Positions 8,808 to 59,344 of a stretch of DNA of 64,000 nucleotides are shown here, one piece after another (within the stretch, counting starts at the first letter, position 1; each line of letters starts with the position of its first letter). The position numbers and the translations under genes were made by a program. Below the pieces are notes generated by a model. It was given only the letters and a program-made list of their open reading frames with translations. It had not been told where the DNA came from and ran no database searches. The DNA is from Trypanosoma brucei (taxonomy: Eukaryota). The stretch spans positions 1,554,916 to 1,618,915 of the forward strand of contig CP000069.1 in the NCBI GenBank assembly GCA_000002445.1, in the 5' to 3' direction.

Positions 8808-10296
8808 TTAAAATGCTCCCAAACTCATAGGAGCAGCATCCATACTCAGAGCAAATTTTTTATTGACGAGAAAACTAGAGTATTTGCAAGTTTCGCCCTC
8901 CCATTTGCAACCATCTTTGCACTCCTCTTGATTTTTCTTTTCGGAGCATTTTTTGTCTTCGGTTTTTTGCTTGTCCTGCTTCCTTTGTCTCTGTAGTCCC
9001 TGATTTAGGTTTGCATTTTGTTTTCGTTTTGATCGTAAGTGCATGTGTCTCTGGGGCAGGTTCCGTTGTTGTCGTTATGTACACTACATAGTGCTTGTGT
9101 TTCTTCTGCTATTTTTTGTTATCGCCACTTGAAGTCACAGGTATTGCAGTTTCCTGTACGTGCTTCAATAATATTTCTCGTTTCGTGAGTGCTTTTACTT
9201 GCCTTTCGATGGTTTGTATCTCGCTCTTTTGCTTTGCTAGCGCCATTTTGTACTTTTGTCTCTGCTCTAGTTTTGTTGCTATCGCGGCAAGGTCCTGCAA
9301 CCATTTCACTTTGGCTTGCGGGTCCCCGCCGTTCTGTGCAGTGTTGGTAAGCTTTAGACATGCTGTATTGCTGTTGCCGTCGCAGTTGGTGTTCATGTGG
9401 CCGATGTAGGCATCGTTACCGATTGTTACGATCGCAGTTGCTGCTTCTGCCACAGCGGATCGTATTCTGGCCGCTGTCAAAGGCTGTGGGGTTACTTTTG
9501 GGAATGCAGCACGTATTGTAGTCCACTGTGACGCTTGGGGCAGTCCGCCCACTTCCCATTGTACGTTGCCGGTTCCGGAGTGAATACACGGTTCCTCGTT
9601 GCTCAGCGCCTGTGCGGTTCCGCACACACAAGCTACTGCGTGTGCTAGAGTTTTGCTTTCTTTCACTCTGCCGACGTTACCGCAGCTTGTTGCATAGTTG
9701 GCGGGCTGCTTGCCGGTCAGTGCCGTGTGCTCCAGATTCTTGCTAGCATCTTTACCTGCTCCGTAGATTGCTGAGTTTATGGCTGCAGTCAGCGCAGTGT
9801 GGTATGCTTCAGTCCGGTTTGCCCTATGAGACATGCAGTGCCTCCACCGCTGCATCTGCGTATGCTGCGACTTGTTGGCGTATTAATTCCTTTTGCACAG
9901 CTGTCGCTGTCTCTAGGTTGTACGCTTTTAGGATGGCTGTCTCCCCGTTTGGTTTGTTCATCTCGGCTTCGAGGCGGTCCAGCGTGGCCACATGTTTTTC
10001 CAGTCCTCAGGTGTGCCTGGCGGTGGTGCTGCTATGGGTTCGATTTTGTTTTGTCCTGAACGAGTAACAAATTTGTCTCTCCACTCTTTCGGCGCGAGCG
10101 ACATATTTAGTTTCAGCACCGTTGGCTCTCCATCGAAGCTGGTTTCTTCTTGTGGCTCGAATGTTATCGGGCTGTCGCCGAGCCTTAGTGCGTCGCACAA
10201 CTTAGTCATGACTTCGACATTGCCTCCTTTGGGCGCTGCTGCCGCCTGTTTGAAGAGTATTGCTACAACAGTCACGTAAAAAAGCTGTTTTGGCAT
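8808..10296 (-). pseudogene. VSG: VSG pseudogene broken into at least three frames. ORFs 9958-10296 and 9109-9855 are N-terminal-domain pieces and 8808-9044 is the C-terminus.
   Basis: The signal peptide is MPKQLFYVTVVAILFKQAAAAP. The C-terminus reads '...CKDGCKWEGETCKYSSFLVNKKFALSMDAAPMSLGAF'. The N-terminal domain is paralogous to those of the VSGs at 32658-34182 and 44688-46264. Confidence 0.8.
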
Positions 10297-17354: not shown

Positions 17355-17825
<471 letters not shown>

Positions 17826-31430: not shown

Positions 31431-31699
31431 AACTTTCATGTATTTAACAACCATAATAAGCGAAACTCAATGTTTTTCATAATTTCACTGATTTTTCATA
31501 CCATAACTCTTTATAATTGTTTACATATAGGCTATTTTCATACATTTAAAAATTTCACATCTCGCAAAATTTTTACAAAAGTGTTAAAATATATCAAATT
31601 TTCGAAAAAATTTCAAAATTGCAAATTTCATAAATTTAATTGAATTTAAGTGGAGAATTTTAAAACATCGCACTCACAAAGCAGAAGCCATCATGATTA

Positions 31700-32506: not shown

Positions 32507-32657
32507 AAAAAAAAATTCAAGAGAAGAAAAGGAGAAAAATGTTAGCCATCGACAAAATAATTCACATGCGCAGACAGCCAAAAAAATAATGATATTATTT
32601 CCGGGGAACTTACGTGTTAAAATATTTCAAATTCAAGCAAGAAAAGTTGAGGGTATA

Positions 32658-34182
32658 TTAAAAAAGCATGGCCAACAAAGCAGCAGCCATACTCAGAGCC
32701 AATTTCTGATTCAGAAGAAAACTAGAAGAGCGGCACTTTTTTGTCTCTTTATCATCTTCACCATCTTTTCCCTTCCTCCATGCACAATTTTGCTTATCTC
32801 CTGTTTTGTCATTTTCAGAATCATGTTGATTTTGGTGCCTTGCACACCGAGATGAATCTGCTCTTGTTCCTGCTGCTGTTGGTGCTGATCTTGCTTTGGG
32901 TTTGTATTTTTTTTTTGCATCATAGTCACGGCCAGCCTTGTTGCAGTTATCTGGGCTAGCATGGTGTTTGTCGCATTCTTGTTTAATGCTAAGTTGCTTA
33001 CCTTCCCCTGGAGTTCCTGCTCTTGGTGAGCCGGCTGTTGCCTCCACTGCGTGGTTGCGGCCGTACTCGTGTTCGGCTTGTTTGGATAGGTTGTCTATGT
33101 CTTTTATAAGAAGCTGCTTTTGTGCCACTTGTTGCTTGTATTCGGAAAATAGTTTCTTTGCTGTTAGTAGATGCCCGATCCAGGCTATTTTCTAAAACCT
33201 TGTTGTGCCATCTTTGATCTGGTCCGTGTATTCAACGCAGACAATTGATGTCCCCGTGCAGACGTTGCCGTTGACTGTTCGGCCTATCCCGATCTTGTTC
33301 TGGTTGTCTGCTAACTGTCCCAGCTGGCCTAGAGATGCTGCTAGTGCGAGCGTTATGCCTTCATCCAGTTGCTTACCTAGATTCGTTTTGGGGCATTTGC
33401 TTATAAGAGTTTCTAGAGCAAATGCGTTAAGGTTGCTTCCTGTTAAGACGGTTCCTGCTATGTTGGTTCCTCCAGCACAGCTGTCCTGGTCATTGGTTAC
33501 TGCGCACAGAAAAAACATGTCGAACGCTATTGATTTTCCGGCGTTTTCTTTTGTGCACTGCAGCACCTTGGTTGTCGCCGTGTTGATGTCGCTACATACT
33601 GGGGCGGCTGCGGTGCCGATTAATGTTCCTGAGCAGAAAGCTTTGGTTAGTGCGTTGTTTATTGCGTTTCCGAGGGATTTACCGGTGCTGTCTCGGGGCT
33701 CCGTGTTTAGTTGTTCGAGCAAGTTCTGTGCTTCCTGGGTTGACATGTTTATGATGCTTATTTGGTAGTCTTTTAGGTTGCTGTTATGCTTGGGCCTGTC
33801 TTTGGCGTTCCAGTCGCTCGTCGGGTTGTTAACCGCCTCCGCGGCTGTTAGCCACCGCGACCATTGTTTTGACCAGTCCAGTCCTTTGGTTGAGTCGCTA
33901 TTGGCCTGCTTATACTTGCCCCACCCCTGTTTTGCCTCGGCTTTTTCAAACATTTTCCTCCAATCCGCTGGTGCTACCGACATGTTCAGCTTCAGTAGGC
34001 TGTCATAGCTTGGTGGCGCCGGCATTGGTGAGCAAGCAGGTAATTTCATGTTTTGAGTTACGTCGCATGCCAAGCAAAGGGAATGAAATGGGGCCTGGGC
34101 GCCCTTTGTCGGCTGGTTCACACAGGGGAGTTATCAGCAACGCCATTAGCGGCAGAAAGTATGGAGTTACACGCATCACCAT
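32658..34182 (-). pseudogene. VSG: VSG pseudogene. The signal-peptide frame, the 309-aa N-terminal-domain ORF (33192-34121) and the C-terminal-domain and GPI ORF (32658-33128) are in different frames.
   Basis: The signal-peptide region reads 'MRVTPYFLPLMALLITPLCEPADKG'. The N-terminal domain reads '...LLKLNMSVAPADWRKMFEKAEAK...' and is paralogous to the VSGs at 44688-46264 and 8808-10296. The C-terminus reads '...KKCRSSSFLLNQKLALSMAAALLAMLF*'. Confidence 0.8.
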
Positions 34183-34361
34183 CTTTATCTTTGTGAAAAA
34201 ACATTTAGGGCCGTTGTGTAATTTAGCGTTGGCGCCTGAAGATTTGTCGAGTTTACGAAACTTCTCAGTGGCGATGAGAGCTTGTTTAAAGGAAGTTTTT
34301 GATTTAGTCATGTGCTGCAGTGTGAGAGAATTCGGTTGTGTTAGATTTAAGTCACAACTTC

Positions 34362-35300
34362 TTAGCCTTGACAAAATCTTTTTCTACAACTGCGGCTCCA
34401 CAAATACTCCATATTCAATATACCATTTCCCACCATATATCCCATAACTTTGAATTTCCCCCAATGGTTCGTATTAAATTTCCTTCTCTCAAATTCTCTA
34501 TAACAACTAAGATTTTTTACAATAAGCTTTGCTTTTTCCTCCAATGCAATTAGTTGTTGTGTAAAATGAATGAATGGCGCCTCTTCGACTTCACTATGTG
34601 GAATAGTAAAAAATCTCTCATCAAAACTAATCGCTGAGCAACAGCTTCTTCCTGAATTGCACTCCATATTAGCAAAGATTTATAAATACTTTGTTACGAC
34701 CATTATTCTTCACTTCCTTTCGATAGGTCTTTAAAATCTAATTCAAATTTCTTAAACGCCAACTCTCTCGCTATCAAGCCAACACCACTAAGACAGTGTT
34801 TGCCACAAGAATTAGACTTCAGAAAATGAGGTATTTTTTATCCTATTCTTTCCTGTATCCAATATTTAAAAACAATACACATTTCTCCAACGCTCTTTGT
34901 GATCTGAATTATCGAGCAACTCTAACTGAGATGCATAACACTCTGATGTTGTCATGAATATAATAGTGTAAATTTGTTTCTCTTTGATGACATCTTCTTC
35001 ACTACCTTTTTCGTCATTAGCTGCACTATTTTGTATAACATATTCCACAGCATTCAAATACTTATCATGTTCGGATATTATATCAGCCGGTCCATCAACA
35101 GTAATGACAATATCCTCATCACTTGCATTCTGTTTTTCTAAAAATTCCATAACCCATCTAGGCCTTTTAATATGACTATACAACCATCCCATTTCAATTG
35201 TAATAATTTCAACATTTCTTACTTTGGCACTCAATATGAGTCTACACCATTCTTTAGTTGCATGAGTTTGTCACTACAACCACAAATACTCTTTGTTTTC
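34362..35300 (-). pseudogene. Fragmented pseudogene of a subtelomeric gene family, copy A, abutting the VSG start. It carries a DxD-type motif ('NASDEDIVITVDG') that suggests a UDP-sugar glycosyltransferase-like protein, but its identity is not confirmed.
   Basis: ORF 34866-35234 reads '...VEIITIEMGWLYSHIKRPRWVMEFLEKQNASDEDIVITVDGPADIISEHDKYLNAVEYVIQNSA...'. ORF 34362-34667 reads '...EAPFIHF...KLIVKNLSCYREFERRK...'. Both ORFs are paralogous to 46383-47420. Confidence 0.45.
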
Positions 35301-35834
35301 TCATGGTAATTCTGTGTTTGATTTGCCGTTGTTTCTCTTCAAGAGATATTGAGCTTAAATAAACTAAATGAAGCAAAAGTACAAAAATACTAAACTTAGT
35401 GCCCTAATCTATCTTTAAAATTTGATAGGGTTATAAGAAAAACTTATAAAAGCTTAATAAAAAATACAGTTTGGCCACTAATGTCTTTACATAAGCAATC
35501 CCTTGACATTGTTGTGATACAGCTGTTGAAGGGTCTGTACTTAGTGTTGGTGTCTTCCATTTGAGAAATCATTTACATTCTTTTAGTTTAAGAAGATAGC
35601 TTCAATTTCACCTAGTTAAGCACACTAATCTTTGACTATAACTCATTATCACCTCCATCATATCTTCGTTTACGATGAGATCCAATTGTCATATCGATGT
35701 TTAAATCCGCATATATTCAACATAAATGAGTCTTTTTTCCCCTTCCTCTCTCACTTACTCATTTACTTGTTGTTCACCGTTACCATTATTTTAAATGCTT
35801 TTATTTTTTCGTTGACTTAGTGTTCTTCACCGCT

Positions 35835-35905
35835 TATATTGTATTATTATTATGCACACTCACATCGGTTACTCATATTAATATTATTATAGTTTATATT
35901 ATAAT
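35835..35905 (-). repeat. 70-bp repeat unit, upstream of the module at 34362-35300 and its VSG.
   Basis: The sequence reads 'attattattatgcacactcacatcggttactcatattaatattattatagtttatattataattc'. Confidence 0.65.
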
Positions 35906-39527: not shown

Positions 39528-41060
39528 CTACCAAATCACAAAAGCAGAAGCCATACTCGGAGCCAATTTCTTATTGGGGAGAAAACTGGAATCTTTGCAT
39601 TTGTTTTCTTCCCATTTGCAACCAGCTTCCTTCTTGCAAACATCCTCCACTTTGCCTGTACATTTTTCTGTTGCTGTTTGTTCATTTCCTTTTGTTTCTC
39701 CCGCTTGGGTTTTCGCTTGTCCGACTTTTGTTGTATTCAATTTGCACTTTTTCTCTCCTTCTGTAGCCTTATCATTCCATTCACATTCTGACTTTAGGCT
39801 GCATTCTTCGGGGATAACTATTGCTTCACAATCTTTGCTGATATTGTTCGCTTGGTCCTTGTTGGCTGGTGTCAATATTTCTTGTGACGCTATGGGGGGT
39901 TTGGTTAAAGCTAAATGCGAGTAAAGTTTGTCAGCTTTGGCGCGCAATGCTTTCAGCTTGGTGTTTATTACCTTTGCGACAGTCGCTGCCTCTGATGCTG
40001 CGTCCAGTTTATTGGCTGCTTCTAATAGCTTCTCTTCCCACTGTATCTTTGTTGCTGTGCCTGTTGCTGCCAGCAGGGTTGATGCGCTCATGTCTACACA
40101 AGCGGCGCTCGCTTCCGCCCGGCAGTCGTGGTTGGTGCCCGCTGTCCCCAGAATTACGCTTTTGCCGCTGCCACCTCCCTTTGTCTTGTAGAGCCCTTTG
40201 AGCTGCGCTAGTAAACTGCGTATGTTGGCCCCTGTTGGTTTGACTGACGGCATCTTTAGGCAGTGCGGTTCAAGTTCCCTATACGCTGCTTTGACGCCGG
40301 CTTCATTCCAAGACGTAACATCCTGTGTTAGTGTCGCTCCGCAGACATCGGTGTTGGGCTGGTCCCCCGAGTTTTTTGCACACAGACACACCGAAACTAT
40401 GCAAAGAGCGTTGCCTGCTGTGGCTACTTTACAGTCAGCGGCCCTGTTGCCGCCTTTTGCCCCCGGGCATTTGTTTTCTGCTAAAGTTTCAGCCTTCCCT
40501 GCGCCGTACGCTGCTGTTTTTAGATCGTCCAGCACTTTCTGTTTCAGGTCTGTTAGTGCTGGTCTACTTTCCGCATCGAATCTTGCCTGAAGTGTTGCCG
40601 CCTCAGCTGCTATTGCTGCTGCAGCTAATGCGGCTGCCCGGCCTACGCTGCTCGTTTTTTGCATTGGTGAGATTTTTGCAGCCTTATTGTTTTTGTCTTT
40701 GTTTGCTAAGGAATGCGCTATGTGTTGCCATGCCAGCCATTGTTCCTGGCAGCTGTCTTTCGATTGGACGTCCTCACATCCTTTGGCTTCGGCCTTGGTT
40801 TTGATGCCGTCCGTCGGAAAGGCCTTAGTCCAATAGTCATCTGCTAACGAAAAGTTCACTTCGTTGATAGCGGCGATTTCATCTGTTTCGAGCTGGGCTG
40901 TTGGCATGTCGGTGCCATCGTCGTTGGCTATTTTTATTAGGGAGCACACCGTGGTTAGTTCAGCTAAATTTAATGCTTCACTGTCGGCTGCGTGCGAATA
41001 TCGGGTTGCTGCTACTACAAACAGGAGTAACACACTGGCGTGAGCTGGTATCAAAGTCAT
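39528..41060 (-). CDS. VSG: VSG with an apparently intact 510-aa ORF: signal peptide, N-terminal domain, two 4-Cys C-terminal subdomains and a GPI signal.
   Basis: The reading frame runs uninterrupted from 'MTLIPAHASVLLLFVVAATRYSHAADSEALNLAELTTVCSLIKIANDD...' to '...CTGKVEDVCKKEAGCKWEENKCKDSSFLPNKKLAPSMASAFVIW*'. The 16-mer at 39416-39431 lies downstream. The hydrophobic tail is slightly shorter than the canonical 23 residues. Confidence 0.8.
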   Translation of the reverse strand: MTLIPAHASVLLLFVVAATRYSHAADSEALNLAELTTVCSLIKIANDDGTDMPTAQLETDEIAAINEVNFSLADDYWTKAFPTDGIKTKAEAKGCEDVQSKDSCQEQWLAWQHIAHSLANKDKNNKAAKISPMQKTSSVGRAAALAAAAIAAEAATLQARFDAESRPALTDLKQKVLDDLKTAAYGAGKAETLAENKCPGAKGGNRAADCKVATAGNALCIVSVCLCAKNSGDQPNTDVCGATLTQDVTSWNEAGVKAAYRELEPHCLKMPSVKPTGANIRSLLAQLKGLYKTKGGGSGKSVILGTAGTNHDCRAEASAACVDMSASTLLAATGTATKIQWEEKLLEAANKLDAASEAATVAKVINTKLKALRAKADKLYSHLALTKPPIASQEILTPANKDQANNISKDCEAIVIPEECSLKSECEWNDKATEGEKKCKLNTTKVGQAKTQAGETKGNEQTATEKCTGKVEDVCKKEAGCKWEENKCKDSSFLPNKKLAPSMASAFVIW

Positions 41061-41379: not shown

Positions 41380-41960
41380 GTCAGGTCCATGCAGTCTGAC
41401 CAGCCGAGGGTAAGGCTTAAATGCATTTATCCGCACCACGCCGTGAGGACATGGTAGTGTGGGACTCAACGCTGGAGGCCAGCGTGCCTATCCACTAAAA
41501 CCCCCTTTGTTTCTTTGAGAATCGACACATACAGGTGGGCCACCGCATGTGTGCGATTCTAGGGGGCGTTGTCCATTTGCCGTCCATCCGATCCCTCCCA
41601 CATTGCATCTGAACCATGTTTACCATATCCATCTGCCTCCCCGGCCGGAAGTTGGGTCAGGGATTTTGGTTCCCCCACCTGAGCAGGGTACTGAACCGTG
41701 GTGCAACACTAAGTAATGGTTCTTTCTTCATGGAGCAGCCACAGCATATTCAGTATTGCAACCGACTTTTGGATGGAACATTTGGCTTTCCAGTCGATTT
41801 CTCTTCTGGTACGTGACCCTGGCGCCACATTGAGGCAGATTCATTCTTAGTGTAAGCTAAATAATCTGCGCCCGCGGGGATTCACCCAGGAATTATCTGC
41901 GACGAGCACTCTACTTAACCACTAAACCAGGGGCCGGTTAAGTTGCTGTTGTAGTCCGCG
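41380..41960 (-). mobile_element. GC-rich non-VSG block carrying a degenerate ingi/RIME-clade retroposon terminal signature on the minus strand. It is a likely truncated retroposon (ingi, DIRE or SIDER-like) and it truncates a VSG.
   Basis: The minus strand reads '...CTCAATGTGGCGCCAGGGTCACGTACCAG...'. The ingi 5' end at 62518 reads '...CTCAACATGGCGCCAGGGTCCAGTACCCCG...'. GC content is well above the flanks. The block ends abruptly at the VSG fragment boundary at 41960. Confidence 0.45.
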
Positions 41961-42592
41961 TAACACAAGCATGTTAAATCTTTTGCTACGGTTGTCACCT
42001 GGATTTTTTCTGAAGCCGAGTTGCACCGTTCCGTTCCTGTGCTGAACATCGGTTTCTTCGTCGCTTGTTGGGGTTGATCTCCCGACAGAGGGTGCTTTAG
42101 GTGTTGTCGTGGCGTTGTTACTAAAGCCTGTATCATAGCGTGAGTCAGCTTTTGCTGTCTACTCGGTTTTATGGCGCCCAGTTGCATTTGTTTTACGGCT
42201 GTTTCTGTCAGTTGTCGTTCTGGTTCGTCGCAGGTGCGTAAATATTTACGCTTTGCATCTGCTGCCTGTGCCTCTGGAAAACTTTGTTTTGTCTTCTGCC
42301 ATGTTTGTTTGCTAAAAGGTGAAAAAATTGGCGGCGTGAAATTAACTGTCAGCGTTGTTACAAAGTACAGTTCCTGTCCGTCGATGATCGCGTGTCGTGT
42401 GTCGGTTCGTGTTAAGTCTGTTGTGTTGGATTTCTATGAGGACGGCTTGTAAATTGCGCAGAAGAAAGAGAATTCTTTGCTGTTCTTTGTGGCCGCTGTG
42501 TTGGCCAGTGCCGCCGCCAATAGTAGTAACAACGATGTTGGTGCTGTAGCAAATACGCCATCTCCCGACTTTTCATGTCCGTATCTGTTCAT
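41960..42592 (-). pseudogene. VSG: VSG 5' fragment (signal peptide plus partial N-terminal domain) truncated by the retroposon-like block.
   Basis: The signal region reads 'MNRYGHEKSGDGVFATAPTSLLLLLAAALANTAATKNSKEFSFFCAIYK...'. The continuation reads '...QKTKQSFPEAQAADAKRKYLRTCDE...QMQLGAIKPSRQQKLTHAMIQALVTTP...'. Confidence 0.55.
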
Positions 42593-44084
42593 CCCTAGCT
42601 TTCAGTCGGGACTTGCAAACTCTGGGGGTTCAGAAACGGAAAAATAGTTGAGTGGCCCCAGTGTCTACAATAAAGTCCACTGCTTTTCTTTCAAGCTGCT
42701 GTTGTTTACCGCGCGTGGCTTTTAGATTGATGAATACGATTTGTATCCATTCACATTATTTCTAGCCGCCTATATCCCTCATCTATGAAATATCGTCTTT
42801 CGACACCCTATTTTTCCACTAAAATAAAAGCTTTATATTCTCACTATTACTTGCCACCGCTTGAAATCAATACATAACATGAAAATCACACGACAGAATA
42901 AAAAACAGTCACCACCATCATCTCTGTTGCACCCATTCATTTTTTGTGATGTGGTGTTTTCTTTTGAGTGCCCATGGTACTTCCATCCGCCGCATCATAT
43001 GTGACTTCGTAATTTCGGCCCCCAGTTTCGCCACTTCTTCCATTTCATACTTTATGTGCTTCATTCTGGGCCTTGAGAATGATTAATTCTAAACATTGAA
43101 GAGGAGTATCTGTTGTTCTCTTCCTAGGAACTTCTTACATTTGTAACGTAGATTGTCATTGGTCTTTCATTTGTTCCATTTTTAAATAATTATCTGATAG
43201 CTGTCGATTTCTTGCACGTGAGCGACACAAAAGCTACAACAGGATAAAAGTCTCATGAGAAATGGCTCATCTATTCTGACTTATTCCCTCTGTGTTAGAT
43301 TCACTTGTATTATTTAAAGTCACCTTGTTTTTAATCTACTAAATAAGCTATTTAAGTTGTGCCTACACACCTCTAATTGCATGGCCCCAGAAAAACAATG
43401 AAATGCTTCGTTCTATCGAATATTTTTACCAACTCTACTGTGCATAGGGTGTTAATAAGGTTAAATGCTTCTACACTGCCTTTTAATGCAATAATTTTAT
43501 TTTTGTCTCTTTTCATTTGCCATTTCTATGGTTTTCCGGATAGTTTTCAAAATCTTTAAATGTTGTGATATTTTTTGAGCTTTACACGTATGTTTAGGTA
43601 CAATCATTCTCTGCATACTTGTTCACTTCTCTCAAGTTCCAAATTCTGTTCATAGCTGCACTCTCACAAGAATTACACGTAATTTATTAGCTACACTTTC
43701 TGCATTAGATAGTTTTTTTCCATAATGCTGCTTTCAGTAGAAATAATGCATTCTTCGAGGAATTCTCAGTAACATGTGGGAAATAGTAGGCTTAGTCTCT
43801 TGCCACACTCACTGCTTCTCCGTTGCAAATTTAGAAGCTTAATTTGTCTTCAAAACTGTACTCTGTCTTTTCATCATCTTACCGTGTATAACAATGAGCA
43901 GTTCCATGTTATTGTTTGACACTCCACATATTCTGTCTCCTTTTTCTTTTCTTTACGCCTTTCTTAATAATATTATCCGTTCCCTCCCCTTTCCCTCTTA
44001 CTCACTGTCCCTCCTACTCACTTTGATTTCGCACTTACCACTGTTCAAATATTTTATTTTTTTCTGTCCATATAGTCTTCATAC

Positions 44085-44455
<371 letters not shown>

Positions 44456-44687: not shown

Positions 44688-46264
44688 TTAGAGGTAAAAT
44701 TCGACGAAACTCATAAAAGCAGCAGCCATACTCAGAGCAAATTTCTAATTGACGATAAAACTACGATTTCTGCACTTCTCCTTTTTTGTATCCTTATCAT
44801 CTTCACCATATTTACCCTTTCTAAATGCACAATTGTGTTTGTCACCTGTTTTGTCAGCTTCACAATTAGACATATTTGGTGTGTTGCATACACAGGTTTA
44901 TCAGCTGCGTGTTCTGCATCTCTTGTCCCTACTGCTGTGTTTTCTTTTCCTGTCTCTTTAGGTTTGCATTCCTTTTGTGTTTTGTCATATTCGCAGTGTG
45001 TTTCCGGACACTCTGCTGGGGTATTGTTCTTTTTGGGGCAGCTCTTGCCGTTGATATTTGTGTCTTTGCCTTTCGGTGCTTGTACAGCAGTTCCTGCCAC
45101 GGGTGTTTGTGCAGGCAAGGCGGCTGCCATCGCCAGACTGTAAGCGCAGTCGGTTTGTTTTTCTATGAGCGCTATTTGCTGTGCAATTCGGTTAGCTGTT
45201 TCGATTTGCTTTGCTTGGGATTCTAAATTTTCTGCTGCCGTCCATAGATGGCCAACCCAAGGAATGCCTGTGACTCCTTTTCCGGTTTGTTTTTTGAAGT
45301 AATTGGCATAACTTACACAGAGGTTTGATGACGTGCCGTCGCAGCTTGCGCCGTTTAGGCCTCCGAGGTAAACCAGTGTCTCGCTCGCTGACGTTTTTCT
45401 GCCTAGAGTTGACTCGAAACTATGTATCGCGTCTATAAAAGCGTTTGCGGTAAGCTTCGGCTTTACTTGTTGCGGACATGTTGCCTTGAGAGTCGTCCAG
45501 TGGGTGTCCGGATTCGTGATGCTGACTACCCAGTTCTGTTGTGTGTCGCCGGCTGGGCATTCGCTGGCGCCTGTGTCGGTGCCGTTGCAGAGGCAGAGAA
45601 AGTCGCCGATTATCGATCGGCCTGTTTTGGCTTCGACACACGTTGTCGTCCAGGCTGCAGCACCATCCAGTGTGTTTGTTGTGTCGACCGCTGTGTTTGT
45701 GCCATCGCCGCCCTATAGGGCGGCGTTGAGTTCCTTTTGTATCTTTGCTGGCAGGGTGGTTGTCACCTCTGTTTTTACAAGATTGTATTGATGCTGCAGT
45801 TCCTCTAATTTGGAGGCGTTTTGTTCTATGATCAAATGAAGAAACTGCCATTGCTGGTCATACGTTATTTTCTTGTATTTGCTGTGGTCTTCTGTTCCTA
45901 CCTTTGCATCTGCCGCCCTCTCCGCTGCCGACCACCAGTGTTCCCATTTTCCGCCCCAGTCTTTGGCATACGAAGGCGATACGTACACTTCCGGCATCTT
46001 TTTTCCTTTTTCTTCTGTTAGTTTTGTGTCGAACAATGCCCGCCAGTTGTCGTCGCTTGTTGTTAAATTGAGTTCAAGCATCGTCTGCAGAGCCTTTCCT
46101 TTATCTGGTGTGATCGTCGCCGGCGGTTGCTGTGCTGCCGCTAGGGCCTGTAACCGACACATGATTCCATGGGCTTGCGCGTTGTCGTCCGCTGCGCTGC
46201 TCGCTGGCCGGATAGCATAAGTTAAGAAAGCTAGCACTGCTAGTACGCAAGTGTTAGCACACAT
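44688..46264 (-). pseudogene. VSG: VSG pseudogene. The N-terminal-domain ORF (45713-46264) and the C-terminal-domain ORF (44732-45130) are separated by frameshifts, and the GPI signal contains an in-frame stop.
   Basis: The N-terminal region reads 'MCANTCVLAVLAFLTYAIRPASSAADDN...LELNLTTSDDNWRALF...'. The C-terminus reads '...KEKCRNRSFIVN*KFALSMAAAFMSFVEF'. Confidence 0.8.
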
Positions 46265-46382
46265 GCTACGCTGTGGGCCGTAAGCACCTACGTATATTAA
46301 AAAGACAGAAAACTACTGGAAAAAAACGTTTTTGTACATAATTATGTAATACCAAAAATTTACTGATAATGACTTGCAGCTG

Positions 46383-47420
46383 TTATAGATCTGATTTAAT
46401 CAACAATTGAACGGAGTCTCTTCGTCGTCGGTGGCGCGCTAGGATATTCTTTAATTTGTTGGGGTGGTTGTTTTTCTGGTTTGTTTCCGGTACTTTCTGG
46501 CACTTATTGTGCAGTGGTCTTCTGCGCTCGACTTGTGTTTCACAAATTCTCGGCTTTAAAAAGGTACCCTTCTTTAAACGCATCACCACAAATCTCAAAA
46601 AATTAAATTTTTCCATCCATTGTATAAGTTTGAATTTTTCACAAATATATTGTGCCAAATTGTTTACTCTCCAACTTCTTGTACAAACTAAGACATTTAA
46701 TAATCATTTTTCCTTCACTTCCCATGCGGTGGGCTATACAGAAAAAAATGAATGGGACCTCTCCAATATCACCACTATTTTGAGCAAAGATTCTCTCCTC
46801 ATAATCCAATCCAATCATTCCTCTCTTCAAAACAAATTTCTGTCAACCAGCTTTTTCCTGGATCGCATTCCATATAGTAAAGGTTTGTGGATACTCTGCT
46901 CTCGCCGCCATTTCTCATTTCCTTTCAATAACTTGCCAAATGTATATTCAAATTTCTTGAGTGCCCAAACTCTTGCCATTAAACTTCCACCACTAAGATA
47001 AGGTTTTCCTCTAGGAGGTATTTTAAGAAAAAGACGTAATTTTTATCTTCTTCTTGTCTCTCTGTGACAAACATTAAAAAAACTAATAACATCTTTTCGC
47101 GGACTCTTTGACAATATCCTTCTAACTAAAGTTCTGTTTATTTTCTGCAGTATTTTGTATAAAATGTTTCACACCACTCTCATACTTATTTCTATCACTA
47201 ACTATAACATCATATCCATCCAAATGAATTACAATATCCTCATCACTTGCATTCGTTTGCTGTAAGAATACCATAAACCATCTAGGCCTTTTATCATGAC
47301 TATACAAACCTCCCATCGCAATTGTAATAATTTCAACATGGCTTAGTTTGCCACTTAATATTAGTCTACACCATACTTGAGTTTCATGAGTTTAAACTAC
47401 AGCCACAAAAACTGTTAGTT
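46383..47420 (-). pseudogene. Copy B of the DxD-motif family pseudogene, immediately upstream of the VSG at 44688-46264 and paralogous to 34362-35300.
   Basis: The sequence reads '...SGKLSHVEIITIAMGGLYSHDKRPRWFMVFLQQTNASDEDIVIHLDGYDVIVSDRNKYESGVKHFIQNTAENKQNFS*'. ORF 46639-46830 reads '...EVPFIFFCIAHRMGSEGKMIIKCLSLYKKLESKQ', which is homologous to copy A. Confidence 0.45.
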
Positions 47421-48244
47421 TCTTAGGATTCTTTTTCTGTTATATTTCCCTCTGTATAATATTAAAGAGATTTTAAGCTTAGAAAATGGAAATCTAATGA
47501 CAACAATCGAAGCAGTAAAACTTTCAAGAGTCCAAATTTTTGGACGTAATTTAGCTTTGAAAATATGGAGAATTTTGAAAAAGTGATAAAAAAGCTGTGA
47601 AAATAAATTAGTTGGACACTAACGTGTTTACATATATTGATACTGCCTTTATATTTTTGTGATTTAGATATTAAATGATGTATGGTTATGTTATGAAACG
47701 TATCTTTGAGCACACATCGACAATTTCTGTTTTAGAATGTAGCCTCAACCCCATACAGTGTAGTTCATGCATACACAGTCCCTTTCTATGCATTTCCAAG
47801 AGACATTTCTCATCTAGTTGCTCTACTTGGTTCGCTATACTAAGTATTTTTTTAGTTTCGTTTGCTGAAACTTCACACCATCTGTTTTCGTCATAATGTT
47901 CCCATCAGAGCGACTTTATGAACTACTTATATCACTGCTGTGGATAACGTAGCGGCTCCATATGCTTTGGACATGAAACTCTGTCTCTCAATGATTGTCT
48001 CCTCCACCACGTCCTTGTGTATAATGATGAAGCCACTCGTAATGTTTTTGTTTAAAATTGATAACATTCTATTTTTGTTATCTATATCTCTCTGTCTTTG
48101 ACTTTTGATCTTCCTCTACTAATACTCCTCTAACTTTCCATTATCCGGTTGCTCACTAACTACCATTTCAACCCTTTCCATTTTTTTATATTTTCCACCA
48201 TGGCAGTTAATTTGATCTTCCCCACTACTTTCATTATAAAAATA

Positions 48245-48295
48245 GTTCCACACGCTAACAACAAACTCCTATCATTATTATTGTTATTGCGATTG
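48245..48295 (-). repeat. 70-bp repeat unit, degenerate.
   Basis: The sequence reads 'cacacgctaacaacaaactcctatcattattattgttattgcgattg'. Confidence 0.6.
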
Positions 48296-51714: not shown

Positions 51715-52265
<551 letters not shown>

Positions 52266-55115: not shown

Positions 55116-55813
55116 AATAAACCAAATAAGAAAATTTCATAATGGCACTCATTTTTCATACACTTTCAGCCTAATACGTTACAACTATAGAACACGTTTA
55201 TACACATTTTTATAAATCTATGTTTTAACTATTTTCACTAATTTGCAGATTTTAATTAAAAATTGTTAAAATATACTAAAATGTAGCAAAATGGGAAATT
55301 ATATAAATTTCATAAAATTGAACAAAAATCCTCATAATTTTAGAATTTTAAAATGCCACAAAACTTACAAAAGTAGCAGCTATAAGAGATAATTTATTAT
55401 TGACGGAGAGACTATTATTCCGACACCTAAGCTTGTCCTTATCATTGTCACCTTCGCCTCCTTTTTTCCATCCACAATGCTTTTCACCATCCTTGTTTGC
55501 TTCCTCACAAACTCTCTGGGTTGTATGCTTACTGCAATATACACTGGTATTTGGCCCTCCAGCTTCTTTGTTTGCTTTTTCGAGCTCAGCTTTTACCTTT
55601 TTTTTCAACTCTCACTTTTTGCCAGTTTCGCCATCGGTATTAAAAACGCACTAATTTTTTCTAGTTTTTTACAAGCGCATTCGCTGTCCCATGCTTTATT
55701 GCATTCTTCCTATACTTTTCCTGCATTTTTCTTGTTCGTTTGGTAGCTCAGCATATTGAGTTCTTCGGTATTCACTGATAATTTTTCCTGATTTGTGTTT
55801 GATAATAAAAGAG

Positions 55814-55822: not shown

Positions 55823-57151
55823 CTGATGAATCCCCTAATGATTTTGGTAAAAATCATTAAGTTAAGGTGGATACACATCTTGTCATATGATCAAATGGTT
55901 TCGCGAAAAATCAATAATCAGACAACAAGATGTGCGAACTCGATATTTTACACGACTCTCTTTACCAATTCTGCCCCGAATTACACTTAAAACGACTCAA
56001 CAGCTTAACGTTGGCTTGCCACGCATTACTTGACTGTAAAACTCTCACTCTTACCGAACTTGGCCGTAACCTGCCAACCAAAGCGAGAACAAAACATAAC
56101 ATCAAACGAATCGACCGATTGTTAGGTAATCGTCACCTCCACAAAGAGCGACTCGCTGTATACCGTTGGCATGCTAGCTTTATCTGTTCGGGCAATACGA
56201 TGCCCATTGTACTTGTTGACTGGTCTGATATTCGTGAGCAAAAACGACTTATGGTATTGCGAGCTTCAGTCGCACTACACGGTCGTTCTGTTACTCTTTA
56301 TGAGAAAGCGTTCCCGCTTTCAGAGCAATGTTCAAAGAAAGCTCATGACCAATTTCTAGCCGACCTTGCGAGCATTCTACCGAGTAACACCACACCGCTC
56401 ATTGTCAGTGATGCTGGCTTTAAAGTGCCATGGTATAAATCCGTTGAGAAGCTGGGTTGGTACTGGTTAAGTCGAGTAAGAGGAAAAGTACAATATGCAG
56501 ACCTAGGAGCGGAAAACTGGAAACCTATCAGCAACTTACATGATATGTCATCTAGTCACTCAAAGACTTTAGGCTATAAGAGGCTGACTAAAAGCAATCC
56601 AATCTCATGCCAAATTCTATTGTATAAATCTCGCTCTAAAGGCCGAAAAAATCAGCGCTCGACACGGACTCATTGTCACCACCCGTCACCTAAAATCTAC
56701 TCAGCGTCGGCAAAGGAGCCATGGGTTCTAGCAACTAACTTACCTGTTGAAATTCGAACACCCAAACAACTTGTTAATATCTATTCGAAGCGAATGCAGA
56801 TTGAAGAAACCTTCCGAGACTTGAAAAGTCCTGCCTACGGACTAGGCCTACGCCATAGCCGAACGAGCAGCTCAGAGCGTTTTGATATCATGCTGCTAAT
56901 CGCCCTGATGCTTCAACTAACATGTTGGCTTGCGGGCGTTCATGCTCAGAAACAAGGTTGGGACAAGCACTTCCAGGCTAACACAGTCAGAAATCGAAAC
57001 GTACTCTCAACAGTTCGCTTAGGCATGGAAGTTTTGCGGCATTCTGGCTACACAATAACAAGGGAAGACTTACTCGTGGCTGCAACCCTACTAGCTCAAA
57101 ATTTATTCACACATGGTTACGCTTTGGGGAAATTATGAGGGGATCTCTCAG
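55823..57151 (+). mobile_element. IS10: Complete bacterial insertion sequence IS10 (Tn10-type, IS4 family), 1329 bp, inserted into trypanosome VSG DNA. It is almost certainly an E. coli cloning-host artefact.
   Basis: The outside end reads 'CTGATGAATCCCCTAATGATTTTGGTAAAAATCATTAAG...'. The inside end reads '...GAAATTATGAGGGGATCTCTCAG'. The length is exactly 1329 bp. A 402-aa transposase ORF is present. A perfect 9-bp target-site duplication flanks the element. The Dam site GATC lies in the pIN region at ~55894. Confidence 0.97.
55930..57138 (+). CDS. tnpA: IS10 transposase (402 aa), intact.
   Basis: The ORF reads 'MCELDILHDSLYQFCPELHLKRLNSLTLACHALLDCKTLTLTELGRNLPTKARTKHNIKRIDRLLGNRHLHKERLAVYRWHASF...THGYALGKL' and matches the known IS10 Tnp sequence from memory. 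Its codon usage and composition differ from the surrounding VSG DNA. Confidence 0.97.
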   Translation: MCELDILHDSLYQFCPELHLKRLNSLTLACHALLDCKTLTLTELGRNLPTKARTKHNIKRIDRLLGNRHLHKERLAVYRWHASFICSGNTMPIVLVDWSDIREQKRLMVLRASVALHGRSVTLYEKAFPLSEQCSKKAHDQFLADLASILPSNTTPLIVSDAGFKVPWYKSVEKLGWYWLSRVRGKVQYADLGAENWKPISNLHDMSSSHSKTLGYKRLTKSNPISCQILLYKSRSKGRKNQRSTRTHCHHPSPKIYSASAKEPWVLATNLPVEIRTPKQLVNIYSKRMQIEETFRDLKSPAYGLGLRHSRTSSSERFDIMLLIALMLQLTCWLAGVHAQKQGWDKHFQANTVRNRNVLSTVRLGMEVLRHSGYTITREDLLVAATLLAQNLFTHGYALGKL

Positions 57152-57160
57152 GGCTGAGTT
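57152..57160. repeat. IS10 target-site duplication, right copy (GGCTGAGTT).
   Basis: Identical to 55814-55822. Confidence 0.95.
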
Positions 57161-59344
57161 CAGTTTCTTGAGATCGGTTATTGACTTTAGCGCCTTTGGT
57201 GTGAAGGCTCCTGTCGCTTCCGCCCGTATGTCTGTTTCTTCAATTTTTCCCCATAGCTGTTTGTGCCATCCGCTGCCTGTCTTGTTGCAGAGTTGTGTCG
57301 CTTCTTCGTCAACTGACGATGGACTTGTTTGGCGCAATACCTGTATGTAGTGCGGAATGTGCTTGCTAGTGATCAGCTCTTCATTTTTTTGGTTACCGTG
57401 CCTGTCGCATGCGCAGAAAGTTTCCGTTTCTAGTTGCTTCAGCTTAACCACAGCGAATTTGAGCTTTGACAAGATGTCACCGTCCTCGTCGCTGCCGTCG
57501 GCTTTCAATTGAGTCAGCGCAGCGCCTCTGCTAGTTATTTTCACTAGCCCGGTGGCTAACGTTAACTTGCTTGCCTGTGCGGCTCCGGATCCGTGTATCC
57601 AGTTGTCTCCGTCCGTCGCATCGGTTAGAGGACATGCTTTGGCACCGCTCTTTGTGTCTGAGCCCACTGTTGTTGCTTTTCCTTGTAGTGCGCTATGTAC
57701 TGGCTTTTTTGTTTTTGTGGAAGCTTCTATCTCCTCTTTTGGTCCTGTTAAACAGCCGTCCAGCAGTGTTTCCAGTTTGGATGTTTCTAGTGCCGTGTCT
57801 GCCGTACTTTCCGCTACACAGCCATGGCTTGTGTCCCTTTTGGATTGTTGGAACAAACGCCAGAAGCAGTGAATGTCGTCAGCGGCAAATTCTACTGTGG
57901 CGACGTAGTGAACGGCTTTGTTTAAGATACCTTTTTCCGTCGATTTGAGTTCGCCGACAGCGTCTGACATTGCTACTTCCAGAATTTTGCATGCTGTGTA
58001 TTGTTATATGTGTCCTGCTTGATGGCTTCGTAGATTTCGAGCTTTTTGGCTTTTTTTTGAACCTTAGAGTGAGCCGAGGCGGCGTCTTTAATTAACATGA
58101 GAGCAAGCTGTGGCGCTTTGCTTAGTTCCGCCTCCAACGTACATGTCGGCGCCCACACAGTCTACTCAATTGCCCCTTTCGATACCGCACCGATGACCGC
58201 TGTAGTCGCCAGTACGAAGGCGATGATAGTGGCTGCTACTGTCTTCTGCAGATTCATTTTTTTCTTTGTTTTAGGCACGGTTTACGGAACCGTTTTGGGT
58301 ATAGCTTAGAGGTTTGCGTCTAGTAAATCAGTTTATCAATTTATTTTCGAGTTTTTTCACCCATAAGAATTTTATAGGTGTCGTTAAGTGGATTGTTTAC
58401 CGTGTTATGTTGCGATATGCGACTGGAGACTTCTTGGATATGCTGTGTGCCATCGCATTGTTTTCCTTTTGAAACTGTCTCTTCCAACTATTTACTTAGC
58501 ACAACTGATTCGTCCTCGAAGTTGAAGCCCTTAATAGAGTTTAAAGGGCTCACTGCACAGCGAGCCCTTTAAACTCTGGTGTACTTTCTCAAATTCATTA
58601 CGTTGTTGGCTTGGTTAGGCATCTTCTAAATGCAACGGCGATGGGTTTAGTTGAGTTTTCAACTTTTAAAAAGGCACCTGTTGGTGTCGAAGAAAATTCC
58701 GCTTCTTAATCTATTCTGAACCTTTCTATATATATTCATGTGTAAAACATTTATCCTTCATTTATTTAATGGCTTCTATCAGCTGTTAATTTTCCGCCGG
58801 CGTTTCGGCTTGGAATAGAATGACAGTGCTGTTTATTCCCCTGACGACGTTCAACCTTTGTTCTTTGCTTATTCTCAGTAAGCAGGTTCTTGTAGTACCA
58901 TCGTTTAAGGCTGGGTACTTTTAATGCTTAAATCTCTTTTTGTTCTTCTTTCTTTTCACTGATACATTCTGTTAGTGATAACTCTGCGATTACCCTCATG
59001 TGAATTATGATTTTTTGAAAACTTTTATGGTTTTAGTTTTACACCAATACGGCAGTAGTGGTGTACTATCATCGACTCTCCTCACTCTATACATATCCTC
59101 CATCTACCCTACATGCACTAATTTAATCAATTACGCATTATTATTATTCTTCTTGTTTCCACAATAATCCGGTGGTAGTCTTAGTTTAAAAACTCCTTCT
59201 AGATAACATAGTACATTTTCCCACAAATGTTATCCATTTTCTATAAATATAATGAGAAAACTTAGGCATTATCTCATACTTCCTCACTTGCTCCTTCTTT
59301 ACTTTTACCTTTGTCTTTACTGCTTCTATTCTGTACATCCATTT

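What the first reader, a model, noticed from the sequence alone, without database searches (positions are those of the whole stretch)
32658..35300. Segmentally duplicated module: a DxD-motif family pseudogene abutting a VSG of the same subfamily, present twice (32.6-35.3 kb and 44.7-47.4 kb)
Both the VSG at 32658-34182 and the VSG at 44688-46264 are preceded within ~120-200 bp by paralogous ~1 kb pseudogene fragments. These read 'VEIITI.MGGLYSH.KRPRW.M.FL...NASDEDIVI..DG.D.I.S...KY...V..IQN' and '...E.PFI.F....K.I.K.LS.Y...E...'. The two VSG N-terminal domains are paralogous to each other. The 70-bp repeat lies upstream of the whole module, so the upstream gene fragment is part of the co-transposed region of this VSG subfamily. 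The 'ASDEDIVI' stretch resembles the DDD/DxD motif of GT31/GT67-like UDP-sugar glycosyltransferases, which are abundant as subtelomeric pseudogenes in T. brucei. The family identity is not confirmed from sequence alone, and it could instead be an ESAG-related family such as ESAG3.
Basis: partly seen in the sequence, partly recalled or inferred. Interest (0 to 1): 0.5.

Follow-up and report, generated by a model that had tools for sequence, protein, structure and literature searches.

The report
Dead ESAG3 genes inside VSG cassettes
Two silent trypanosome coat-protein (VSG) gene cassettes each carry a dead copy of ESAG3, the enzyme recently reported to add glucose to this class of coat protein; this is an ordinary, already-documented feature of these chromosome ends and not a recent duplication.

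Summary
Each region is a silent VSG cassette on the minus strand: degenerate 70-bp repeat, spacer, full-length dead ESAG3 gene, spacer, class B VSG pseudogene. The upstream "fragments" are complete ESAG3 pseudogenes (A 34352-35418, B 46540-47542). A 2026 preprint reports ESAG3 as a GT-A O-glucosyltransferase of class B VSGs.

The two modules are not a recent segmental duplication. Nucleotide homology covers only ESAG3ψ (72%), its upstream spacer, and the VSG C-terminal/3' region. The ESAG3ψ-to-VSG spacer and the VSG N-domains show none (22.6% amino-acid identity). A and B share no inactivating lesion, and in a tree A sits nearer to expression-site ESAG3 than to B.

The unit does travel as a block: a T. 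equiperdum contig is collinear with module A at 86-87% and shares two of its ESAG3 lesions. An ESAG3 pseudogene 3' of the 70-bp repeats is published for BES7 (VSG3). The element is a known kind of low interest. A possible link between ESAG3ψ cassettes and O-glucosylated class B VSGs is untested.

The parts
35845..35905 (-). Module A: single degenerate 70-bp repeat, upstream boundary of the cassette
   Evidence: Read directly. Aligns to the window's clear 70-bp repeats in alignment A4.
35419..35844 (-). Module A: spacer between the 70-bp repeat and ESAG3psi
   Evidence: 66% identity to the equivalent spacer in B, z=10.6 against mononucleotide shuffles. This is weak but detectable homology.
34352..35418 (-). 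ESAG3 pseudogene A: full gene length, about 8 frameshifts, 3 in-frame stops (aa 194, 241, 244) plus a TAG at codon 3, and DXXD disrupted to DGPAD
   Evidence: Frameshift-aware alignment to ESAG3 P0002. tblastn E=1.7e-80. 65.6% amino-acid identity to ESAG3 over all aligned codons, 69.5% from aa 43 onward.
34183..34351 (-). Module A: spacer between ESAG3psi and the VSG start (169 bp)
   Evidence: No similarity to the equivalent spacer in B. Conserved at ~86% in the T. equiperdum locus L002.
32658..34182 (-). VSG A: class B (VSG3-like) VSG pseudogene. ATG at 34182, frameshift just after the signal peptide, in-frame stop at 33192-33194, Cys loop CTGTSIVCVEY
   Evidence: Pfam VSG_B E=6e-29 and Trypan_glycop_C E=8e-17. 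Frames read. The only PDB matches at E<=0.01 are VSG3 entries (6ELC and variants, E~6e-7).
32614..32629 (-). Conserved VSG 3'UTR 16-mer of VSG A
   Evidence: Pattern search, 1 mismatch.
48235..48295 (-). Module B: single degenerate 70-bp repeat, upstream boundary of the cassette
   Evidence: Read directly. Aligns to the 70-bp repeats in alignment A4.
47543..48234 (-). Module B: spacer between the 70-bp repeat and ESAG3psi
46540..47542 (-). ESAG3 pseudogene B: full gene length, 5 frameshifts, in-frame stops at aa 52, 142, 333, 345 and others, an 87-nt deletion of aa 149-177, DXXD kept (DGYD), but W242R, H297F and W345*
   Evidence: Frameshift-aware alignment to ESAG3. tblastn E=6.6e-70. Deletion junction shown.
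46265..46539 (-). Module B: spacer between ESAG3psi and the VSG start (275 bp)
   Evidence: No similarity to the equivalent spacer in A.
44688..46264 (-). VSG B: class B (VSG3-like) VSG pseudogene. ATG at 46264, in-frame stop at 45713-45715, C-terminal frameshift and stop, Cys loop CDGTSSNLCVSY
   Evidence: Pfam VSG_B E=9e-20. Frames read. Best PDB match VSG3 E=3e-14, then VSG615.

Best explanation
Each region is one cassette of a silent subtelomeric VSG array of a Trypanosoma brucei-group parasite. Read on the minus strand, the order is: degenerate 70-bp repeat, 0.4-0.7 kb spacer, a gene-length but dead copy of ESAG3, 0.17-0.28 kb spacer, a class B (VSG3-like) VSG pseudogene, then the conserved VSG 3' end. 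ESAG3 is the expression-site gene reported to encode the GT-A O-glucosyltransferase that modifies class B VSGs.

Neither ESAG3 copy can make an enzyme. Each is carried passively as part of the co-transposed region, meaning the DNA between the 70-bp repeat and the VSG that is copied along with the VSG during duplicative gene conversion. It may also serve as an extra block of homology for recombination.

The two cassettes share this architecture but are not recent duplicates of one another. The ESAG3psi parts are old paralogues (72% nt) that decayed independently. Homology stops at the 3' end of ESAG3psi, so the VSG bodies have a separate or recombined history.

Shown here: identity as ESAG3, pseudogene status, position relative to the 70-bp repeats, the extent of homology, and block inheritance of module A. 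Inferred: passive co-transposition and use as recombination homology.
For: ESAG3 identity: the profile search hits the named ESAG3 cluster at E=2.6e-54. tblastn gives 1.7e-80 and 6.6e-70. In an NJ tree all psi copies fall with BES ESAG3, apart from GRESAG3 and T. congolense, with 100% support.

Pseudogene status: lesion maps are.

Cassette position: 70-bp repeats lie upstream of both modules.

Block behaviour: T. equiperdum contig L002 is collinear with window 36209-32726 at 86-87% nt, spanning the previous VSG's 3' flank, the 70-bp repeat, ESAG3psi and the VSG. It shares with A the TAG at codon 3 and a 1-nt deletion near aa 349-350. The unit was therefore copied or inherited after ESAG3 had died.

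Not a recent A/B duplication: no frameshift or stop is shared. A is 69.5% and B is 68.0% identical to ESAG3, but they are only 52.3% identical to each other. A+L002 group with BES ESAG3 to the exclusion of B and L001, bootstrap 98.5. There is no nucleotide similarity in the ESAG3psi-to-VSG spacer or the VSG N-domain.

Precedent: an ESAG3 pseudogene 3' of the 70-bp repeat is listed for BES7/VSG 427-3, and ESAG3 pseudogenes are listed for BES15 (PMC2567434). Most subtelomeric ESAG3 copies are reported to be pseudogenes (PMC6152948).
Against: The same order, orientation and completeness of ESAG3psi in both modules could equally reflect one ancestral cassette. So could the weak homology of the spacer upstream of ESAG3psi, and the fact that the two VSG families are mutual best matches in both the N-domain and C-domain.

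An in-register 87-nt deletion (aa 149-177) is present in B, L001 and L002 but not in A or any BES ESAG3. If it is a single event, it implies a common dead ancestor, with later repair of A by gene conversion.

The tree was built from pseudogene translations projected onto one ESAG3 guide, which can bias placement.

No transcription or recombination data were available, so co-transposition of these particular copies is inferred and not observed.
Confidence: 0.6

Rival explanations
1. Ancient duplication of the whole module. A single ancestral cassette, 70-bp repeat + already-dead ESAG3 + class B VSG, was duplicated. The VSG N-domain and the short spacer then diverged beyond recognition through diversifying selection or were overwritten by segmental gene conversion.
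For: Identical architecture and orientation. The VSG A and B families are mutual best class B matches and their C-terminal domains are the best match in the window (62% aa over 58 residues). The spacer upstream of ESAG3psi has detectable homology (z=10.6). The 87-nt in-register deletion is shared by B, L001 and L002. Module A demonstrably propagates as a block.
Against: A and B share no inactivating lesion. The neutral ESAG3psi-to-VSG spacer should have retained ~70% identity like ESAG3psi, but it shows none. A groups with BES ESAG3 and not with B. A lacks the 87-nt deletion. That deletion lies between AAAGAG direct repeats, so it could recur, and L002's junction (CAC in place of GTC) differs from that in B and L001.
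Confidence: 0.3
2. Independent juxtapositions. ESAG3 copies, which are abundant and mobile in subtelomeres, landed next to two unrelated class B VSGs on separate occasions, and the resemblance of the two modules is coincidental.
For: ESAG3 pseudogenes are numerous in subtelomeres (PMC6152948). ESAG3 loci coincide with recombination breakpoints in expression sites (PMC2567434). A and B share no lesions and A and B are not sister lineages in the tree. In L001 the ESAG3psi is 5'-truncated and fused to a different VSG fragment, which shows that such junctions do get reshuffled.
Against: Both copies are full length, in the same orientation, and in the same slot between the 70-bp repeat and the VSG start. 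Both precede the two class B VSGs that are mutual best matches, out of roughly 19 VSG units in the window. All four ESAG3psi copies examined precede a class B VSG.
Confidence: 0.1

Closest known systems
ESAG3 (expression site-associated gene 3; Fam53 sensu stricto) of Trypanosoma brucei, and its subtelomeric pseudogenes
   Same: Full-length homology to the 368-aa BES ESAG3 proteins (69.5% and 68.0% aa identity from residue 43 onward, after frame correction). Clusters with BES ESAG3 and not with GRESAG3. Found in a subtelomeric VSG array, where most ESAG3 copies are reported to be pseudogenes.
   Different: Not intact: there are multiple frameshifts and stops, and catalytic residues are lost (A: DGPAD insertion, E244*; B: W242R, H297F, W345*, Y163 deleted). 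Located downstream of the 70-bp repeat next to the VSG, not upstream of the repeats among the other ESAGs.
ESAG3 pseudogene 3' of the 70-bp repeats in Lister 427 BES7 (VSG 427-3 / VSG3) (Hertz-Fowler et al. 2008, PMC2567434)
   Same: Same slot, between the 70-bp repeats and a class B VSG, and the same kind of element (a dead ESAG3).
   Different: BES7 is a telomeric expression site with a long repeat array and an intact VSG. Here the cassettes are silent array units with one degenerate repeat and VSG pseudogenes.
LH3/PLOD3 glycosyltransferase domain (GT-A fold; Pfam GT_PLOD PF25342)
   Same: The weak sequence hits of intact ESAG3 and of copy B fall on the N-terminal Rossmann-like half, including the DXXD metal site (HLDGSD opposite FVDSYD). 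The preprint reports structural superposition with RMSD 2.40 A over 147 C-alpha pairs.
   Different: Sequence similarity is below family thresholds (16.5 bits against a 27-bit cutoff). ESAG3 is a protein O-glucosyltransferase that forms an 18-mer, not a collagen-modifying enzyme. The window copies are dead.
GT67/GT31 UDP-Gal/UDP-GlcNAc transferase pseudogenes of T. brucei
   Different: No detectable sequence relationship in the Pfam scans run here.

Membership tests
ESAG3 sensu stricto (Fam53) | Significant full-length sequence similarity to named BES ESAG3 proteins | tested here: met
   Profile hit to P0002 at E=2.6e-54, and its cluster is named ESAG3. tblastn E=1.7e-80 (A) and 6.6e-70 (B). 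The alignment spans aa 1-368.
ESAG3 sensu stricto (Fam53) | Groups with BES ESAG3, not with GRESAG3 or other trypanosomatid homologues | tested here: met
   NJ tree with 200 bootstraps: the psi copies, BES ESAG3 and the T. congolense ESAG3-like sequence are separated from GRESAG3 at 100%.
ESAG3 sensu stricto (Fam53) | Intact ~368-codon reading frame (functional gene) | tested here: not met
   A has 8 frameshifts and 3 or more stops. B has 5 frameshifts, 4 or more stops and an 87-nt deletion. Both are pseudogenes.
ESAG3 sensu stricto (Fam53) | Canonical position in an expression site, upstream of the 70-bp repeat array | tested here: not met
   Both copies lie downstream of a 70-bp repeat and directly upstream of a VSG within a silent array. 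This matches the BES7 exception in PMC2567434.
GT-A (LH3/PLOD3-like) glycosyltransferase | DXXD metal-binding motif (ESAG3 D110/D113) | tested here: inconclusive
   B keeps D-G-Y-D. A has D-G-P-A-D, a one-codon insertion that breaks the spacing.
GT-A (LH3/PLOD3-like) glycosyltransferase | Remaining catalytic and pocket residues (H297, W242, E244/Q245, G215-G216, Y163, W345) | tested here: not met
   A: G215V and E244*. B: G216S, W242R, H297F, W345*, and Y163 deleted. The residue list comes from the preprint.
GT-A (LH3/PLOD3-like) glycosyltransferase | Sequence match to the family model above threshold | tested here: inconclusive
   GT_PLOD E=0.04 for copy B and E=0.005 (16.5 bits, cutoff 27) for intact ESAG3. 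All five PDB hits of ESAG3 are LH3, best E=0.029. The hits are consistent but sub-threshold.
GT-A (LH3/PLOD3-like) glycosyltransferase | GT-A three-dimensional fold | not tested
   No structure prediction was run. A cryo-EM structure is reported in preprint 10.64898/2026.01.27.701950.
GT31/GT67 UDP-sugar glycosyltransferases | Match to Galactosyl_T-type family models | tested here: not met
   No such Pfam hit for either copy at E<=1, nor for five intact ESAG3 homologues at E<=0.1.
Class B VSG | VSG_B N-terminal domain plus VSG C-terminal domain | tested here: met
   VSG_B E=6e-29 (A) and 9e-20 (B). Trypan_glycop_C E=8e-17 (A) and 0.003 (B).
Class B VSG | Cys-flanked Ser/Thr loop at the position of the VSG3 O-glucosylation site | tested here: met
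   CTGTSIVCVEY (A) and CDGTSSNLCVSY (B) align with VSG3 CTGSASEGLCVEY. Actual glycosylation cannot be tested here.
Recent segmental duplication (A = B) | Continuous nucleotide homology across the whole module, with shared lesions | tested here: not met
   Homology covers only the upstream spacer, ESAG3psi and the VSG C-domain/3'UTR, and is absent in the spacer and N-domain. No lesion is shared.

The most novel reading that the evidence does not exclude
Cassettes that carry an ESAG3 pseudogene between the 70-bp repeat and the VSG mark a lineage of class B VSGs with the Cys-flanked Ser/Thr loop that ESAG3 O-glucosylates. On this reading, an ancestral VSG of this type travelled together with a working copy of its own modifying enzyme (a substrate-plus-glucosyltransferase cassette), and the pseudogenes are its relics.

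Evidence not excluding this: all four ESAG3psi copies examined (A, B, L001, L002) precede class B VSGs. A, B and L001 have such a loop and L002 has a variant of it. The published BES case is VSG3 itself.
Probability: 0.15. Interest if true: 0.65.

Novelty: already known. Interest (0 to 1): 0.27.

Why it matters
In itself it matters little. ESAG3 pseudogenes are a documented, abundant component of T. brucei subtelomeres, and one is already recorded 3' of the 70-bp repeats in an expression site.

The useful outcomes are corrective:
- The element is ESAG3, not GT67.
- The catalytic motif is DG.D, not DED.
- The two modules are old, independently decayed relatives, not a recent duplication.

The one lead worth a genome-wide test is whether ESAG3psi-containing cassettes are enriched upstream of the class B VSGs that ESAG3 is reported to O-glucosylate. 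If so, the evolutionary history of the enzyme would be tied to that of its substrates. It would also give a simple genomic marker for a VSG clade.

Tried and rejected
(1) After the first three-frame comparison I thought both copies ran in one frame with shared in-frame stops (TLS*W, EI*I, IERK*). Aligning to intact ESAG3 showed the true frame changes there, so those 'shared stops' are out-of-frame artefacts. I rejected that reading.

(2) GT31/GT67 assignment: no Pfam support.

(3) A three-sequence profile against PDB gave only spurious hits. A word-indexed protein search with copy A found only one short T. b. equiperdum ORF. The exhaustive profile search was needed to identify the family.

(4) The weak Pfam hits DUF478, AF2331-like and others were treated as noise.

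(5) I tried to identify the source genome through three intact VSGs of the window. None is on record.

(6) The intact VSG at 39531-41060 looked like a VSG3-like counter-example lacking ESAG3psi. All-vs-all comparison shows it groups with w14121 and not with A/B, so it is not informative either way.

(7) Marcello & Barry 2007 could not be read: the PMC id I recalled is not held. Further text searches found no paper describing ESAG3psi-VSG class linkage.

(8) Structure prediction and fold search were not run, because a cryo-EM structure and LH3 superposition are already reported in the preprint.
Full report
**Context.** The window is a minus-strand array of VSG genes and pseudogenes, separated by 70-bp repeats and long TAT/TTA runs. 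Pfam assigns both class A and class B VSG domains to the long ORFs. The finding concerns two units, which I call module A (about 32.6-35.9 kb) and module B (about 44.7-48.3 kb).

**Checking the observation.**
- blastn of the two regions aligns 34980-35357 with 47104-47481 (75%) and 34615-34872 with 46821-47081 (70%).
- The VSGs align only at their 3' ends, 32677-32821 with 44716-44866.
- tblastn of the translated frames, and later of ESAG3 itself, finds only these two copies in the 64 kb.
- A single degenerate 70-bp repeat lies on the upstream (higher-coordinate) side of each module, at about 35845-35905 and 48235-48295. Both align with six clear 70-bp repeats of the window.
- Both VSGs are class B by Pfam, and both have disrupted reading frames.

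So the paralogous upstream pseudogenes, their adjacency to VSGs, and the position of the 70-bp repeat are all real.

**What the upstream element is.** Pfam gave nothing significant. The only hint was a marginal hit of copy B to the PLOD glycosyltransferase domain (E=0.04). A word-indexed search found only a 95-aa hypothetical ORF of T. b. equiperdum. An exhaustive HMMER search used a profile of the two window ORFs plus that ORF. It hit a 368-aa protein at E=2.6e-54, followed by a tail of 300-400-aa proteins. Cluster look-up names the top hit's cluster 'expression site-associated gene 3 (ESAG3) protein' and the tail 'ESAG3-like/GRESAG3'. tblastn of ESAG3 against the window gives E=1.7e-80 for A and 6.6e-70 for B.

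**Lesion maps.** A frameshift-aware protein-to-DNA alignment shows that both are gene-length copies.
- A spans 35418-34352. It has about 8 frameshifts and stops at aa 194, 241 and 244.
- B spans 47542-46540. It has 5 frameshifts, stops at aa 52, 142, 333 and 345 among others, and a 29-codon deletion.

My earlier impression of 'one frame with shared in-frame stops' was wrong. Those stops are out of frame relative to ESAG3.

**Glycosyltransferase question.** A 2026 preprint (10.64898/2026.01.27.701950) reports the following.
- ESAG3 is a Mn2+-dependent, UDP-glucose-specific, retaining GT-A O-glucosyltransferase.
- It is required for O-glucosylation of the class B VSG3, and it acts on peptides from other class B VSGs.
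- Its closest structural relative is the LH3/PLOD3 GT domain.
- Its catalytic residues are D110/D113 (DXXD), G215-G216, W242, E244/Q245 and H297.

My own searches agree as far as sequence alone can go. Intact ESAG3 hits GT_PLOD at E=0.005, which is below threshold. All five of its weak PDB hits are LH3, and the alignment places HLDGSD opposite FVDSYD. However, the family (GT31/GT67) is wrong, and the motif is the 'DG.D' further along, not 'DED'.

In the window copies the catalytic set is degraded.
- A: DGPAD in place of DGSD, G215V, E244*.
- B: G216S, W242R, H297F, W345*, and Y163 deleted.

**Are A and B a duplicated module?** I aligned A against B segment by segment, with shuffled controls.

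| Segment | A vs B result |
|---|---|
| Spacer upstream of ESAG3psi | 66% identity, z=10.6 |
| ESAG3psi | 72% identity over 960 nt, z=111 |
| ESAG3psi-to-VSG spacer | no similarity |
| VSG N-domain coding region | no similarity |
| VSG C-domain plus 3'UTR | 70% identity, z=57 |

Other evidence on the same question:
- No frameshift or stop is at the same ESAG3 position in A and B.
- After frame correction, A and B are 69.5% and 68.0% identical to BES ESAG3 but only 52.3% identical to each other.
- In an NJ tree all psi copies lie inside ESAG3 sensu stricto. A (with L002) groups with BES ESAG3 at bootstrap 98.5, and B and L001 branch earlier. The caveat is that the pseudogene translations were projected onto one guide protein.
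- The VSG N-domains are 22.6% identical (E~1e-16). The A family (A, P0045, VSG1167) and the B family (B, VSG 1125.2782, VSG1678) are mutual best matches among the class B VSGs sampled, at 57-90 bits against 61 or less.
- Their C-domains are also the best match in the window.

Taken together, this is shared architecture and distant kinship, not a recent segmental duplication. The break in homology exactly at the 3' end of ESAG3psi argues that the VSG bodies have a different or recombined history.

**Evidence that the unit moves as a block.**
- The closest relative of VSG A with genomic context is a T. equiperdum VSG (P0045, 81% identity). Its contig (L002) is collinear with window 36209-32726 at 86-87% nt. 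The collinear stretch runs across the previous VSG's 3' flank, the 70-bp repeat, ESAG3psi and the VSG, and continues downstream at 91%.
- A and L002 share the TAG at codon 3 and a 1-nt deletion near aa 349-350. ESAG3 was therefore already dead when this block was copied or inherited.
- A third lineage is L001 on T. b. equiperdum chromosome 7. It has a 5'-truncated ESAG3psi fused to another VSG fragment, again followed by a class B VSG with a CGGASNSGVC loop.

**The 87-nt deletion.** B, L001 and L002 all lack exactly 29 codons (aa 149-177). The deletion lies between two AAAGAG (Lys-Glu) direct repeats. A and all named BES ESAG3 proteins keep the segment. Two readings are possible:
- It is a shared ancestral lesion, and A was later repaired by gene conversion.
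- It is a recurrent slippage hot spot.

L002's junction codon (CAC in place of GTC) differs from that of B and L001, which leaves this open.

**Comparison with what is known.**
- Hertz-Fowler et al. 2008 list 'ESAG3 psi 3' of 70-bp repeat' for BES7 (VSG 427-3, MITat 1.3) and ESAG3 pseudogenes in BES15. They note that most expression sites have only the VSG in that interval (PMC2567434).
- Abbas et al. 2018 state that most subtelomeric ESAG3 copies in T. brucei are pseudogenes (PMC6152948).

The element and even its slot are therefore already documented. I found no paper linking cassette-resident ESAG3psi to a particular VSG clade.

**The one lead.** VSG A and VSG B both have VSG3 as their best solved-structure match. 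Both carry a Cys-flanked Ser/Thr loop at the position of the VSG3 O-glucosylation site. The published expression-site case is VSG3 itself. With four loci plus one literature case, this is only a lead. The other class B VSGs in the window lack ESAG3psi and belong to other subgroups.

**Verdict.** These are two ordinary silent VSG cassettes that each carry a dead ESAG3 in the co-transposed region. On interpretation, ESAG3 is right, GT67 is wrong, and 'duplicated module' is overstated. Novelty is low.

Noticed in passing
window 55823-57151 (+): A complete bacterial IS10 (ISVsa5-family) element. It has an intact 402-aa DDE transposase ORF (55930-57138), is 99% identical to copies in E. coli cloning strains, and is flanked by a 9-bp target-site duplication (GGCTGAGTT). 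It interrupts a class A VSG (57107-57970, with its C-terminal part near 55357-55563). It is almost certainly a hop into a BAC or fosmid clone during propagation in E. coli, so it is an assembly or cloning artefact and not parasite DNA.
   Followed up: yes
L002 8981-9957 (T. equiperdum contig CZPT02001881.1): The ESAG3 pseudogene collinear with copy A looks mosaic. Its ends share derived states and lesions with A, but its central part (about aa 200-320) is almost identical to intact BES ESAG3. This suggests patchy gene conversion between a cassette pseudogene and a functional ESAG3.
   Followed up: partly
window 47095-47104; L001 ~6190-6200; L002 ~9338-9376: An in-register 87-nt deletion (ESAG3 aa 149-177) between two AAAGAG direct repeats is present in three of the four ESAG3 pseudogenes examined. 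It is absent from copy A and from all named BES ESAG3 proteins. It is either a lineage marker or a slippage hot spot.
   Followed up: partly
L001 4365-6784 (T. b. equiperdum chr 7, CM010678.1): This ESAG3 pseudogene lacks its first ~70 codons and is joined directly to the C-terminal-domain coding part of another VSG fragment, with no 70-bp repeat in between. This is an example of recombination reshaping the upstream side of an ESAG3psi-VSG unit.
   Followed up: partly
window 17392-17819, 44133-44435, 51758-52217: Very long pure or near-pure TAT/TTA trinucleotide runs (100-153 copies) sit at cassette boundaries. They appear to be expansions of the TRR part of the 70-bp repeat.
   Followed up: no
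window 31581-31596 and 32614-32629; L002 11588-13759: Two copies of the VSG 3'UTR 16-mer lie about 1 kb apart downstream of VSG A, which suggests an orphan VSG 3' end. The T. equiperdum locus has about 2.2 kb of extra DNA at this point relative to the window.
   Followed up: no
window 41900-43500: Between the intact class B VSG (39528-41060) and its nearest upstream 70-bp repeats (44107-44435) lies about 3 kb containing VSG-like fragments and no ESAG3. This is another cassette with extra material in the co-transposed interval.
   Followed up: no
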